Of a DNA stretch of 64,000 nucleotides, positions 1 through 4,094 are shown piece by piece. The notes under the pieces are model-generated. The model worked only from the letters and a program-made list of their open reading frames with translations, ran no database searches and had not been told where the DNA came from. The DNA comes from a virus. Within the stretch, counting starts at the first letter, position 1, and the number at the start of each line of letters is the position of its first letter. The translations under genes and the position numbers were made by a program. The stretch is taken from positions 1 through 64,000 of the IMG/VR virus record IMGVR_UViG_3300042988_000510. One strand, given 5' to 3'.

Positions 1-303
1 GTCGGCGGATGACATATAGCTCTCGACCTGGGCCGCATTTTCACTCGGCAGGAGGATGCGGTAGTTGCCCTTGGTCTGCGCCAGATACTTGCCCTCGCGG
101 AGCAAGATTTTCCTGACGTAATCCACCGCCGACAATTCTTGCATGCTCAGTTCCTGGAAGGTGACCATTGGGGCGACCTCCGGGACCTCGATACCGATCA
201 CGCTGCGGACGGCATCTGACGGGATGAATGCGCCATACTGATCCAGCTTATTGCGCCTGAAGTATTCCAGCAGTTCACGTGCTGGGTTCTTTTTGTCAGT
301 CAT
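1..303 (-). CDS. Hypothetical protein (3' truncated by window edge), coupled to the RAMP-like gene
   Basis: ATG at 303 overlaps the end of 296..895; the frame is open to base 1 (MTDKKNPARELLEYFRRNKLDQYGAFIPSDAVRSVIGIEVPEV...). It is missing from the ORF track because there is no stop in the window. Confidence 0.75.
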   Translation of the reverse strand, partial: MTDKKNPARELLEYFRRNKLDQYGAFIPSDAVRSVIGIEVPEVAPMVTFQELSMQELSAVDYVRKILLREGKYLAQTKGNYRILLPSENAAQVESYMSSAD

Positions 304-895
304 GCGTGATCTCCGCTTGTGCGCGGCCGAAGGTCGGGCGGAAATCTCCGAACCCGCCATACATCGCGGCATGCTTGGCAATGTCTGACAGAGATTCTGC
401 GTCGATCAGATTGTCGTCAAACTCGATGGCCGTTTTGAATGACCACTCATGAAATATCGGGGCCGCCTTGACCACGCGGACCTGGCCTTGCTTGAGGGTC
501 AGATTGATGCGGAAGTCAGGATTGCCGACGATATCCTCCGGAGTTTTGACCTTGTCTTTGTCACGGAACATGAGGGGGATTTTGTCCTCGGTGGCGAACA
601 CCGATCCACGCACATCAGCCTTGCTGACTTTGGCTTTCTTGAAGCTGGTCGCGGCAATGGCTGCCATCAGCCAACTGGAAGGCACGTAAATGCCGACACG
701 GTCATCCCAGAAAATCTTGGCTCTGACCTCTATATCCTGCAGGTCCCGGTAATCCTCATCGGTGCGCCGGGTTTTCTTGGCGTTGATCTTCGCCATGGCC
801 TTGGTAAAAGGGTTGAACCTGTCAACCGTCTGCGGATTGTTTTGCAGGAGCGGATTGATGCCGGTGACGGCGATGGTCATTTGTCGGATGGACAT
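296..895 (-). CDS. Stand-alone RAMP/Cas7-like RNA-binding protein (199 aa)
   Basis: RAMP-like motif order: N-terminal strand with 'GINPLL', then 'GIYVPSSWLMAAI' (cf. xIPGSSLKGxxR), 'APIFHEWSF', and a C-terminal glycine-rich loop 'GGFGDFRPTFGR'. Confidence 0.7.
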   Translation of the reverse strand: MSIRQMTIAVTGINPLLQNNPQTVDRFNPFTKAMAKINAKKTRRTDEDYRDLQDIEVRAKIFWDDRVGIYVPSSWLMAAIAATSFKKAKVSKADVRGSVFATEDKIPLMFRDKDKVKTPEDIVGNPDFRINLTLKQGQVRVVKAAPIFHEWSFKTAIEFDDNLIDAESLSDIAKHAAMYGGFGDFRPTFGRAQAEITHD

Positions 896-920
896 GATTG
901 GTTCCTATGGTGTGTTTATT

Positions 921-1328
921 AAACCCGCGTCGATTGTCGGCGCGAGAGTGTGAGGATTGACCCTCGGTTATCGCACTGATTGCCAATGCGATAACCGCGT
1001 TTCATTCAGATTCATTTCGGTGCTCCGCCTTACGTTTCGATGCGATGCGCCGCCTTACGCTGCGCTTGAGGACTGATCCTCGGCATTGCCCACTCAAAGA
1101 ATGAGCAACCCGCGATTCATTCCCATTCGTTGCTATGCTCTGCGATTTGTTGCTGCGCAGTGCGACGCCTTAACTTGCCGTTCCTTGCGATGCGATGCCA
1201 GTCGATGCACCTTGGGGACCGTTCCCCGGTATTACCCACTCGCAAGAATGGGTAACCCGCGTATCGGTCAGGATCGATGCTGTGCGTAGCACGGCATTCC
1301 ACTGATTTCCGGTGCGTTGCAATCCAGA
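921..1328 (-). ncRNA. Putative guide-RNA array: 5-nt-periodic tracts separated by conserved double hairpins
   Basis: Tracts at 996-1065, 1111-1210 and 1258-1327 contain 14, 20 and 14 pentamers. Double hairpins lie at 952-996, 1068-1110 and 1214-1257. Stem mismatches become G-U pairs only on the minus strand. Confidence 0.75.
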
Positions 1329-1334
1329 AAACAC

Positions 1335-1376
1335 ATTCTCTCACTGGCCGTGCCAGAAGTCAATAGCAATGCTATT
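1335..1376 (-). promoter_or_regulatory. Sigma70-like promoter for the array/RAMP operon, with overlapping palindromic operator
   Basis: Minus strand TTGACT(1363-1358)-17 nt-GAGAAT(1340-1335) with a TGn extension; palindrome AATAGCAATGCTATT at 1362-1376. Confidence 0.7.
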
Positions 1377-1378
1377 AC

Positions 1379-2881
1379 CTAAGCCGCTTTTTTATCCATC
1401 CCACCCCGAATTGCCGCCACAGCCTCGATGACCTTCAGTAGTTGGCTTTCGCTCAAGTCATCCAGTTCCGCGACGATCTGTGCGCGAAGTTTGGCTGCGA
1501 CGACGGATGCTTTGACTGGTGTCGGCGTGGTGGCCTCGACGATGCGTTGTTCTTCGTGCTTAACCGCTGCTTTTGCCAATGCGGCCTGTTCCTCTCGGAG
1601 TTTCTGCGCATCGATCCGTTGCTGCTCGGCTGCGACCCGCTGCGTGATCAGACCGGCAAGCGCGTCGGGGTCGTAATGGCAGACCCTGGCGAAGTCATGT
1701 TGGAACAAAAACCAGTTGTCCCCGATGGCTTTGCGGTTGGCCTCGATCCGATCCGCAAGCTCATTAGCCGCGATCTTTTGCTGGGCCAGTTCCGCGTCGA
1801 GCGCATCTCTGGAGCCCTTGATGGATTTCTTGCCTTTGATGACGTCACCGAATGGCACAGCAAGCACCCATGGTCCCCCAAGGCGCCTGTTTAGCGCGTC
1901 AACGTGCTGAGTTAGCTTGTCGTGATATTCGCGCACCAGATCGATCCGGATGCTGTCTTTGCGGGTCTTGACCAGCTTGTCCAGCGTCAGCCGTTTTTGT
2001 CGGGCTTCTTCGCGGATGTCGTCAATCGCCCGGAACAGTTCATCTATGCTGGCCGTCTGGCTCAGTGCATTCTGCTTGGCCGCCTCGAGTCGATCCTCGA
2101 CATCTCGGCACCATCTCACCGTGCGTTCCGCGTCGGCAAAATCCTCATCGGTTTCCAGATCGGTCTTAATGCCATCGAACACTGCCAGCGCGTGGGATTT
2201 AAAGGCATCCAGGTTCGATGCCGTGACCATCCCGGTGACCTCGATGTGCAAGGCCGGAAGTTGGTCGGGTGCGCGGCCGGCGACCGGAGTCGGGGTTTCC
2301 TGGTGCTGGTATTCGGCCAGGTCTTTGGCAAACTGCTTCCAGCCGGCGATGAGCTTTTTCCGCAGTTCCGGCACGCTTTCGTACCATGCGAACAGCATGT
2401 CATCGCGGTTGCCAGATGAAGCCATGAACAGGCACTTCTCAGCCCCTGAGAGGAGCAAAACCTGCTCAAGCTGAGGATGGTATTCCCCCGGGATGACGCC
2501 GCCCCTTAGCGCCTCTCTGAGCTTGTTGTTCAGTGATTTATGCTCGAAGGCGATGTTGCCCATGAGGGTCACGCCGTCGGTCGATGCCGAGAGCGGCATA
2601 CCGTCGATGTCCTTCGCGTGGGTGGCAGGGTAAAGTTCTTCGCCGATGATTTCCTCGGCCCACGGTCGGGCAATCGCCTCGTAGGCGTGGCCCCGATCAA
2701 AGATTTCTTGCTGGGCGTCAGAGACTTCCGGCGCGATGCCGGTAGCCTTCAGTTTTAGCAGGTCCGACCGTGACTTATGGGGGCTGATGTTCAGCATGGC
2801 CGATGCTTCGGAGGCGTTGTAGCTGCTGGCCCGATGCGCATGCCACTCGGGAGACCCTTGGATCAAGTTTTTTTCGCTCAT
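1379..2881 (-). CDS. YqaJ/lambda-exonuclease-family protein with long helical C-terminus
   Basis: 'QGSPEWHAHR', 'ASEAS', 'DRGHAYE', 'SASTDG', 'FEHK', 'YHPQLEQ'; adjacent to bet. Start taken at MSEKN. Confidence 0.85.
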   Translation of the reverse strand: MSEKNLIQGSPEWHAHRASSYNASEASAMLNISPHKSRSDLLKLKATGIAPEVSDAQQEIFDRGHAYEAIARPWAEEIIGEELYPATHAKDIDGMPLSASTDGVTLMGNIAFEHKSLNNKLREALRGGVIPGEYHPQLEQVLLLSGAEKCLFMASSGNRDDMLFAWYESVPELRKKLIAGWKQFAKDLAEYQHQETPTPVAGRAPDQLPALHIEVTGMVTASNLDAFKSHALAVFDGIKTDLETDEDFADAERTVRWCRDVEDRLEAAKQNALSQTASIDELFRAIDDIREEARQKRLTLDKLVKTRKDSIRIDLVREYHDKLTQHVDALNRRLGGPWVLAVPFGDVIKGKKSIKGSRDALDAELAQQKIAANELADRIEANRKAIGDNWFLFQHDFARVCHYDPDALAGLITQRVAAEQQRIDAQKLREEQAALAKAAVKHEEQRIVEATTPTPVKASVVAAKLRAQIVAELDDLSESQLLKVIEAVAAIRGGMDKKAA

Positions 2882-3741
2882 TGCGGTGCTCCGTTTTCGT
2901 AAGATGCAACCCACTCCTCGCTGGCCTGTTCGGCTGGAACCGCCATGGCGTGTATGGCCTCCTGCATGGCTCCGTCGACCACGTATTTGGTCGCCAGCTT
3001 TGCGATGATGCCATCAGCATTGCTGGTGCCGGCGGACAAGGCTTGAAGGATGCGTGGCTTCTGCTTCTCGAGGATTTCGGCGGTCAGTGTCGGCATCTCG
3101 GGTTTCTCGGGCTCTTTGCGGAACTGGCCCTCGATGACGTTATCCTCGCTCAGTGACTTGCCTTCCATTTCATCGGCTGTCGGCTGGGCTCCGACCTCGG
3201 GGAAGGCTTTTCTCAGTGCCTGGGCCTCCGCACATTTACTGACCTGGCCATACGGGCGCTTGGACCACATGGCGTTCGGGGCGATACTCCTTTCTTTGCC
3301 GCCTTTCACGGCGTAGTTCTCTTTCCAGCGTTCGATTGCAGAGAACTCGACGATTTCCCCACTGGGCAGCCGGCGCTTGACCGTCACCTTGCACCAGACC
3401 GGGTAGGTGATTTCCACCCCGCCGATGTTCTCCGTGACGTCGGGTCCGAACTCTGGTTCTGTGACGCCGGCATACTGGCCGGATCGGGCTGCCATCACCC
3501 GGTACGAGCCGACCCCAGGCATGATGACGTCACGCATGCGTCCGGCTTTTGAGTCCCACATGGGGACGATGTGAACCGGCTTTTGCATCGGGTCAAGGCT
3601 GGATGCCTTGCAGTACCCGATGACAAGTTTAATGCTTTCGGTGCTGGCTCCCGGGTAAAGGCTGGACTCCAGCACCGAGAGCAGTTCCTGCTCGCTCATG
3701 GCAAGCGCCGGAATGGCGTCCTGCTTTGTGGCTGCGCTCAT
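2878..3741 (-). CDS. bet: Phage recombination protein Bet/RecT (single-strand annealing)
   Basis: 'YCKASSLDPMQKPVHIVP', 'MWSKRPYGQVSKCAEAQALRKAFP', 'PTADEM'. Confidence 0.9.
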   Translation of the reverse strand: MSAATKQDAIPALAMSEQELLSVLESSLYPGASTESIKLVIGYCKASSLDPMQKPVHIVPMWDSKAGRMRDVIMPGVGSYRVMAARSGQYAGVTEPEFGPDVTENIGGVEITYPVWCKVTVKRRLPSGEIVEFSAIERWKENYAVKGGKERSIAPNAMWSKRPYGQVSKCAEAQALRKAFPEVGAQPTADEMEGKSLSEDNVIEGQFRKEPEKPEMPTLTAEILEKQKPRILQALSAGTSNADGIIAKLATKYVVDGAMQEAIHAMAVPAEQASEEWVASYENGAPQ

Positions 3742-3770
3742 GGCTTTATCTCCTGTTTTGTTGAGGTTTG

Positions 3771-3800
3771 ATTGTACCATAATCTAGTAGCTCTGCTATT
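3771..3800 (-). promoter_or_regulatory. Leftward promoter and operator upstream of bet
   Basis: Minus strand TGGTACAAT extended -10 (3779-3771); operator AGTAGCTCTGCTATT at 3786-3800. Confidence 0.6.
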
Positions 3801-4094
3801 TGCTTTCGGCTAGTTTTTTCCGTAGATCGAACACGGCGCTGGCCAAGGCTTCGGCCAGTTCTGCGTCATTGGCCGGCTGGCATTTCCGGCGGGTTTCCTC
3901 GATCACATGGCGGGTGCCACGGACCTGCTCCATCACATGCTCCTGTGCTGTCATGGCTTTTTCTCGTCTTTGTGGCTTTCGATTTCATCCCAGTCGATAT
4001 CCTCGATGTTGCTTGCCACAATAACCATCCCGATGAGGATGGTAAGGACAAACAGGATGCCGATGATTTGGGTTGCGGTTAGTTCGTGGCTCAC
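3796..4094 (-). CDS. Two small coupled hypothetical proteins (3951..4094, membrane-spanning; 3796..3954)
   Basis: Read by eye: VSHELTATQIIGILFVLTILIGMVIVASN... and MTAQEHVMEQVRGTRH...; overlapping stop/start codons. Confidence 0.5.

What the first reader, a model, noticed from the sequence alone, without database searches (positions are those of the whole stretch)
952..1257. Covarying double-hairpin separator fixes the RNA strand and suggests processing into single guides
Seen: three copies of a 4-bp stem with 6-nt loop (GAGG-attgac-CCTC 952-965; GAGG-actgat-CCTC 1068-1081; GGGG-accgtt-CCCC 1214-1227). Each sits beside a 10-bp stem (966-975/987-996; 1086-1095/1099-1108; 1232-1241/1246-1255), followed by AACC(C)GCG. 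The copies differ by compensatory changes (GAGG/CCTC vs GGGG/CCCC; TTGC/GCAA vs TTAC/GTAA). The apparent C-A mismatches are all G-U pairs on the minus strand, the strand of the RAMP gene. Inference: structure is selected at the RNA level and acts as a handle, cap or cleavage site; no Cas6 is visible, so processing would need a host RNase or the partner ORF.
Basis: partly seen in the sequence, partly recalled or inferred. Interest (0 to 1): 0.7.

Follow-up and report, generated by a model that had tools for sequence, protein, structure and literature searches.

The report
VIPR guide-RNA 3' tails (double hairpin)
The three repeated double hairpins are the structured 3' ends of three guide RNAs of a phage VIPR system, a CRISPR-related RNA-guided DNA silencer first described in 2026, so the finding is real but belongs to a known kind.

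Summary
Three copies of a long hairpin plus a short hairpin lie at 952-1260 on the minus strand. The structure is selected at the RNA level: related phages keep the pairs through compensatory changes, and G-U pairs mark the strand.

The 199-aa gene next to it (895..296, minus) is a Vipr protein. A family profile matches PDB 36pp, 'SUSP1 Vipr protein', at E 1.4e-64. Each unit is a run of five-base repeats followed by the double hairpin. That is the layout of a published VIPR guide RNA (vrRNA): variable tract plus conserved 3' tail (bioRxiv 10.64898/2026.04.26.720920).

Processing into single guides remains inferred, because no RNA data exist for this phage.

This clade differs from the studied SUSP1 type in three ways:
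- The repeat is GCA/NN, not GGY/NN.
- The tail is two hairpins with an invariant U-G pair, not a pseudoknot.
- The Vipr residues that contact the second G and the Y in SUSP1 are replaced.

The genome holds four more such units beyond the window. This scan has met VIPR loci many times on other DNA (161 notes). It is a new member of a known kind.

The parts
1335..1363 (-). Promoter-like site (TTGACT, 17 nt, GAGAAT with TG) that would start the transcript just before the first repeat tract
   Evidence: the only promoter-like match on the minus strand in 700-1600 (1 found, 0.6 expected from shuffles). This is a consensus match only.
1261..1325 (-). vrRNA1 variable tract, 13 five-base repeats (degenerate GCA/NN)
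   Evidence: repeats read in the register fixed by the tail.
1214..1260 (-). Tail 1: 13-pair hairpin with one bulge and a 4-nt loop, then a 5-pair hairpin with a 4-nt loop
   Evidence: -25.7 kcal/mol, the MFE equals the model structure; model hits at 1208-1264.
1114..1208 (-). vrRNA2 variable tract, 19 five-base repeats
1068..1113 (-). Tail 2: same double hairpin, with compensatory differences from tail 1
   Evidence: hit at 1062-1117.
999..1063 (-). vrRNA3 variable tract, 13 five-base repeats
952..998 (-). Tail 3: 13-pair hairpin without a bulge (5-nt loop beginning GCAA), then a short hairpin
   Evidence: -25.9 kcal/mol, z -6.47; hit at 946-1002, E 7.3e-17.
924..946 (-). Small leader hairpin between the last tail and the vipr ribosome-binding site
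   Evidence: -10.9 kcal/mol, z -1.93: weak. Related loci carry a hairpin at the same place, some followed by a T-run.
296..895 (-). vipr gene (199 aa, P0001), a RAMP-type RNA-binding protein
   Evidence: profile against PDB 36pp_D, E 1.4e-64; phmmer 2.7e-23; phrog_4652, E 6.4e-59.
1..303 (-). N-terminal 101 codons of the accessory gene (vap-like). The gene continues across the contig junction.
   Evidence: 138-nt terminal overlap, 1 mismatch; 33% and 30% identity to the Vibrio phage partner, which hits phrog_5926.

Best explanation
The three double hairpins are the conserved 3' tails of three VIPR guide RNAs (vrRNAs).

Shown here:
- The locus reads, on the minus strand: promoter-like site, then three units, then vipr, then a vap-like gene.
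- Each unit is a tract of 13, 19 or 13 five-base repeats followed by the double hairpin.
- In each repeat a conserved triplet (G, C, A) alternates with two free bases.
- The repeat register runs unbroken into the base of the long hairpin.

Inferred from the published SUSP1 system:
- Vipr protomers polymerise along the tract, one per repeat. They hold the triplet and present the two free bases for gapped pairing with DNA.
- The folded tail marks and caps the 3' end, sets the register, and is where ordered assembly is seen first.

Inferred without data:
- The three guides and vipr are made as one transcript.
- Host nucleases cut or trim this transcript in the 4-5 nt linker after the short hairpin. 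Bound Vipr and the hairpins protect the rest. The products would be about 115, 146 and 116 nt.
For: Protein:
- P0001 matches 'SUSP1 Vipr protein' (PDB 36pp_D), profile E 1.4e-64 and single sequence E 2.7e-23 over residues 5-197.
- The G-loop motif is kept.

RNA layout:
- The preprint describes vrRNAs as 9-16 five-base repeats followed by an invariant structured 3' tail (Results read).
- In 36 tracts lying between model-defined tails, 445 repeats read in the tail's register give G 80%, C 67% and A 78% at positions 1-3. Positions 4 and 5 carry 0.05 and 0.02 bits.

Structure:
- 57 of 57 model hits lie on the gene strand, in 18 of 25 sources.
- 92.6% of cells are paired and 17 of 18 pairs change on both sides. 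The covariation score is 0.700, against at most 0.158 when partners are slid.
- MAFFT plus RNAalifold, run independently of the model on 27 of the 57 tails, gives the same two helices. 15 of 16 pairs have compensatory changes.

Strand:
- Of 825 cells, 646 are Watson-Crick, 122 G-U and 8 A-C. That is 93.1% paired on this strand against 79.3% on the other.

Place:
- The model finds nothing elsewhere in the 90-kb genome.

Accessory gene:
- The partner ORF is related to the partner in a Vibrio phage, which falls in phrog_5926 together with the gene next to vipr in a Felix O1-like phage.
Against: - No RNA data exist for this phage. Transcription, the ends of the RNAs and Vipr binding are therefore all untested here.
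- The triplet is GCA, not the published GGY, and the tail is not the published pseudoknot. The working details are carried over from a relative with about 29% protein identity (tblastn to Felix O1-like phages).
- No target was found. Scanning the phage's own genome and the fetched loci with skip rules 0 to 3 gave nothing above order-shuffled guides.
- The pair counts come from alignments fitted to the model, which lean towards the structure.
- The promoter is only a consensus match.
Confidence: 0.9

Rival explanations
1. The separator is mainly a cleavage element: a small self-cleaving RNA of an undescribed kind, or a site cut by Vipr or the vap-like protein in the manner of Cas6. It would not be only a passive cap.
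For: - The units lie head to tail with 4-5 nt linkers and only one promoter-like site, so some cut is needed.
- One U-G pair is invariant (52 of 52), and the flanks are conserved.
- The preprint reports hammerhead-interspersed and 'staggered' processed arrays in other VIPR types (passages).
Against: - No Rfam ribozyme matches at E <= 10 in 1-4000 or in the downstream array.
- Two plain hairpins have no evident catalytic core.
- The text I read reports no nuclease activity for Vipr.
Confidence: 0.1
2. The hairpins are transcription attenuators or terminators that set the ratio of guide RNA to vipr mRNA.
For: - Some related loci have a hairpin plus T-run just before the vipr ribosome-binding site (L012 and L013).
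- One downstream unit scores as terminator-like.
Against: - None of the three window tails is followed by a T-run.
- The terminator scan finds none on the minus strand in 700-1600.
- The T-run hairpins in relatives are a separate element that follows the last tail.
Confidence: 0.05
3. The repeats act as DNA: iterons, operator sites or recombination sites beside the RecE/RecT genes.
For: - The array lies next to a RecE-like exonuclease and RecT.
- Both strands can fold.
Against: - G-U against A-C asymmetry is 122 to 8.
- 57 of 57 hits lie on one strand.
- GNRA-type loops cap many copies.
- The array travels with vipr, not with RecET, in other phages.
Confidence: 0.02
4. It is a CRISPR-like array whose repeats are cut by a Cas6-type enzyme.
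For: Repeats with a hairpin alternate with variable stretches, and a RAMP-family gene is adjacent.
Against: - The variable stretches have a 5-nt period with three fixed bases, unlike spacers.
- The four flanking ORFs have no Cas match in Pfam or PADLOC.
- Only those four ORFs were tested.
Confidence: 0.01

Closest known systems
3' tail of type II VIPR vrRNAs (Escherichia phage SUSP1 clade; bioRxiv 10.64898/2026.04.26.720920 and .720927; PDB 36pp)
   Same: - A conserved, structured element directly 3' of a five-base repeat tract.
- Repeated once per guide.
- Next to vipr and a small accessory gene in a phage.
- On the gene's strand.
   Different: - Two hairpins here, against a hairpin plus pseudoknot there.
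- The tail model finds nothing in 13 GGY-type loci.
- The triplet is GCA rather than GGY.
- The tracts have 13, 19 and 13 repeats, against 9-16.
- The guides lie head to tail under one promoter-like site upstream of vipr.
Hammerhead-interspersed and 'staggered' vrRNA arrays of other VIPR types (same preprint, legends of figs S18 and S19)
   Same: Several guides lie in one array and must be separated.
   Different: No hammerhead or other Rfam ribozyme is found here. I could not see those figures.
CRISPR repeat hairpin as Cas6 or Cas5 handle
   Same: A repeated hairpin bounds each guide, and a RAMP-family protein binds the RNA.
   Different: - No cas genes were found among the four flanking ORFs.
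- The guide part is periodic with fixed triplets.
- The tail is 3' of the guide and about 47 nt long with two helices.
ToxI/ToxN type III toxin-antitoxin arrays (recalled, not tested beyond family scans)
   Same: Tandem structured RNA repeats lie upstream of the protein gene. In some relatives a terminator-like hairpin sits between them.
   Different: The protein is a Vipr with no PADLOC or Pfam toxin match. The units are 115-147 nt and internally 5-nt periodic.
TRAP binding site of the Bacillus trp leader (recalled)
   Same: A triplet plus a two-base spacer is read by repeated protein subunits.
   Different: That is a ring of small subunits with a regulatory role. There is no homology and no guide function.

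Membership tests
VIPR system | Vipr protein (RAMP with RRM core, G-loop and thumb) | tested here: met
   By sequence only: PDB 36pp_D; G-loop columns nearly invariant.
VIPR system | vrRNA tract of tandem five-base repeats with a conserved triplet and two hypervariable bases | tested here: met
   G 80%, C 67%, A 78%, then 0.05 and 0.02 bits, over 445 repeats. The triplet is GCA, not GGY. The preprint allows 'a related consensus' and names NNNGG, YNNNG and NNNNG.
VIPR system | Conserved structured 3' tail after each tract | tested here: met
   The shape differs from the SUSP1 pseudoknot.
VIPR system | Adjacent small accessory gene (vap) | tested here: inconclusive
   A partner ORF is present and is 30-33% identical to the Vibrio phage partner. 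That partner hits phrog_5926 at E 2.2e-5. The window's own pieces hit no family. That phrog_5926 is vap1 is my inference from gene order.
VIPR system | vrRNAs expressed and bound by Vipr | not testable with these tools
   No RNA holder is listed.
VIPR system | Gapped recognition of DNA targets (two bases read, one skipped) | tested here: inconclusive
   no match above shuffled guides in the phage's own genome and the fetched loci (210,644 bases). Public collections were not scanned.
Type II VIPR (SUSP1 / P. fulva) | GGY/NN repeats read by H17, R138 and W178, with a pseudoknot tail in the SUSP1 clade | tested here: not met
   N, A and F at these sites, with GCA repeats; the tail model has no hit in GGY-type loci. 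I could not see the paper's type tree (supplements closed).
CRISPR array | Repeats separated by aperiodic unique spacers, with cas genes | tested here: not met
   periodic tracts; no Cas family in the four flanking ORFs.
Hammerhead or other known self-cleaving ribozyme | Match to an Rfam ribozyme model | tested here: not met
   no such match at E <= 10.

The most novel reading that the evidence does not exclude
This clade may speak a separate VIPR 'dialect' that is orthogonal to the GGY type.
- Its Vipr reads GCA instead of GGY, through replaced contact residues. SUSP1 H17, E71, R138 and W178 become N, W, A/F/V and mostly F. D177 and R179, which contact G1 and help form the Y3 pocket in SUSP1, are kept.
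- Its guides carry their own double-hairpin tail with an invariant U-G pair.
- If so, guides of one dialect could not be loaded by, or hijack, the Vipr of the other. That would matter in the guide-stealing conflicts described for SUSP1 satellites, and for multiplexed tools.
Probability: 0.45. Interest if true: 0.6.

Novelty: new member of a known kind. Interest (0 to 1): 0.38.

Why it matters
- It adds a well-supported structure model for the guide tail of a VIPR clade other than the one studied. The model rests on 57 copies from 18 sources.
- It links a change of the fixed triplet (GGY to GCA) to changes at the protein residues that hold that triplet. This is a testable specificity code.
- Two cultured phages carry this type and could serve as test systems: Listonella phage phiHSIC and Vibrio phage 1.266.O.
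- How head-to-tail arrays without ribozymes are cut into guides remains open.

Tried and rejected
Searches and tests that gave nothing:
- Rfam found nothing relevant.
- blastn of the gap against phage records found no match.
- Pfam and PADLOC on Vipr found nothing.
- The first paper search, on pentanucleotide repeats, was irrelevant.
- I considered TRAP-like, type III toxin-antitoxin-like and gp32-like readings. I dropped them once the PDB match named the family.
- No RNA holder is listed for this DNA, so I did not use read laying.
- The local target scan with skip rules 0-3 gave nothing above shuffled guides.
- The search for related loci with P0130 found no relative.

Model limits:
- The tail model misses L009, L022, L023 and L025, although by eye they show two hairpins after each tract.
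- It finds only 2 of the 4 downstream units in this genome.

Rows left out:
- L008 and L026 were left out of all counts. Their upstream stretch is near-identical (L008) or identical (L026) to that of L007 and L025.
- L025 was left out because its protein match is partial.
- L032, L040 and L041 were left out (near-duplicate or partial matches).
- One search used 27 of the 57 tails, at least one from each source.

Supplements of the three preprints are closed. Figs S9 and S16-S19 and data S4 may already show this clade's repeat consensus, tail and type.

Full report
**What is there.**
- The window is the first 64 kb of a 90.1-kb viral record.
- The 483-nt gap at 896-1378 lies between a 199-aa ORF (895..296, minus) and a RecE/YqaJ-like exonuclease followed by RecT.
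- As RNA on the minus strand, each copy forms a 13-pair hairpin next to a short hairpin (5 pairs in two copies, 4 in the third). Energies are -25.7, -22.3 and -25.9 kcal/mol.
- The plus strand folds less well in all three: -20.6, -13.7 and -22.0 kcal/mol.
- One promoter-like site lies on the minus strand at 1363..1335. No terminator-like site lies on that strand.

**What the gene is.**
- Pfam and PADLOC give nothing for the 199-aa protein, and PHROGs gives phrog_4652 of unknown function.
- The family is large: 886 proteins at E <= 0.001 among 957 candidates, and 1,631 cluster representatives at E <= 0.001.
- A profile of 120 of the 150 listed representatives matches one solved structure, PDB 36pp chain D, 'SUSP1 Vipr protein', at E 1.4e-64. 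The single sequence matches at E 2.7e-23.

**What is in print.** That name led to three 2026 preprints.
- Discovery paper, bioRxiv 10.64898/2026.04.26.720920. I read the Results, the Discussion and Methods sections 20 and 25, plus passages.
- Cryo-EM paper.720927, and the competition paper, 10.64898/2026.10.15.759431. I saw the abstract, the outline and passages only.
- They describe VIPR systems. A phage-borne RAMP protein (Vipr) polymerises on a vrRNA made of 9-16 five-base repeats (GGY/NN) followed by an invariant structured 3' tail.
- The NN bases read DNA with one base skipped.
- A small accessory gene (vap) sits alongside.

**The finding in that frame.** On the minus strand the gap reads: promoter-like site, tract of 13 repeats, double hairpin, tract of 19, double hairpin, tract of 13, double hairpin, small leader hairpin, vipr. 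The double hairpin is therefore the vrRNA tail.

**Comparative test.**
- I fetched loci around Vipr homologues from named phages and from IMG/VR.
- Nearly all show the same unit on the gene's strand.
- I grew a covariance model in three rounds, from 2, then 10, then 41 copies.
- The last round finds 57 matches at E <= 3.5e-5 in 210,745 bases. All are on the gene's strand, in 18 of 25 sources.
- It finds none elsewhere in this phage's genome and none in a Felix O1-like locus.
- On that alignment 92.6% of 975 cells pair, against 64.4% in shuffles and at most 54.7% with slid partners. 17 of 18 pairs change on both sides. One U-G pair near the top of the long hairpin is invariant, 52 of 52.
- These alignments are fitted to the model. 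I therefore also ran MAFFT plus RNAalifold on 27 of the 57 tails. It gave the same two helices, with 15 of 16 pairs showing compensatory change.
- On the second-round alignment there are 122 G-U cells against 8 A-C cells. Pairing would fall from 93.1% to 79.3% on the other strand.
- Many long hairpins end in GNRA-type loops.
- This settles the strand and the RNA-level selection.

**How this clade differs from the studied type.**
- Read in the register fixed by the tail alone, 445 repeats from 36 tracts give G 80%, C 67% and A 78% at positions 1-3, and almost no information at positions 4 and 5.
- The register runs straight into the base of the long hairpin.
- In SUSP1 the contacts are H17 and D177 to G1, R138 and W178 to G2, and a pocket of E71, M72 and R179 for Y3 (passages).
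- All 20 loci of this clade have N, W, a non-Arg residue (A, V or F), D, mostly F, and R at H17, E71, R138, D177, W178 and R179.
- 18 of those 20 have GCA as the top periodic triplet upstream. L002 has its arrays downstream, and L009 shows GAA.
- In contrast, 11 further loci with R138 and W178 all show GGC arrays, and the Felix O1-like locus shows GGT.
- The tail model finds nothing in 13 such loci, 50,936 bases.
- The protein and RNA changes fit each other, but that they cause the change of triplet is inference. The preprint lists alternative repeats (NNNGG, YNNNG, NNNNG). This clade may be its YNNNG class in a shifted register, which I could not check because the supplements are closed.

**Beyond the window.**
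- The contig ends overlap by 138 nt with one mismatch, so the partner gene runs across the junction.
- After its stop lie four more tract-plus-double-hairpin units with a variant tail, and then a tail-less tract.
- The partner is 30-33% identical to the Vibrio phage partner. That partner falls in phrog_5926 together with the gene next to vipr in the Felix O1-like phage.

**What is not shown.**
- Expression, RNA ends and Vipr binding are untested, because no RNA run holds this DNA.
- With one promoter-like site and 4-5 nt linkers, the guides probably come from one precursor that host nucleases cut or trim. This is inference.
- No known ribozyme is present.
- No target was found in the sequences I held.

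**Standing.** The system is in print, and this scan has met it often: 161 notes in at least 138 genomes, some on tails. It is a new member of a known kind, with a distinct tail and triplet.

Noticed in passing
window 1-138 and L006 3964-4101 (record bases 89963-90100): The two ends of the 90.1-kb record overlap by 138 nt with one mismatch. The genome is therefore circular or terminally redundant in the assembly, and the vap-like gene spans the junction.
   Followed up: yes
L006 about 3290-3760, minus strand (record bases about 89,290-89,760): A second array lies downstream of the vap-like gene. It has four tract-plus-double-hairpin units with a variant tail, then a tail-less tract. The tail model finds only two of the four.
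   Followed up: partly
window about 1358-1376 and L006 about 3215-3240, minus strand: The same palindrome overlapping a TTGACT hexamer stands before vrRNA1 and again before a UvrD-like helicase gene (L006 3215..1605). It looks like a shared operator-promoter.
   Followed up: no
L002 (Listonella phage phiHSIC) 4585-4841; L001 (Vibrio phage 1.266.O) 3890-3944 and 4590-4748: Two cultured, named phages carry this GCA-type system, with tails downstream of vipr. They could serve as laboratory models.
   Followed up: partly
L012 and L013, last about 60 nt before the vipr start: A terminator-like hairpin with a T-run sits between the last tail and the vipr ribosome-binding site. This would favour guide RNA over vipr mRNA.
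   Followed up: no
L009, 600 nt upstream of vipr: This locus has the clade's protein signature, but its periodic triplet is GAA rather than GCA. Its double hairpins are not found by the model.
   Followed up: no
alignment A8, columns 17 and 34 (window tails: near the top of the long hairpin): A U-G wobble pair is invariant in 52 of 52 copies and is flanked by conserved A-U and U-A pairs. It may be a protein contact.
   Followed up: no
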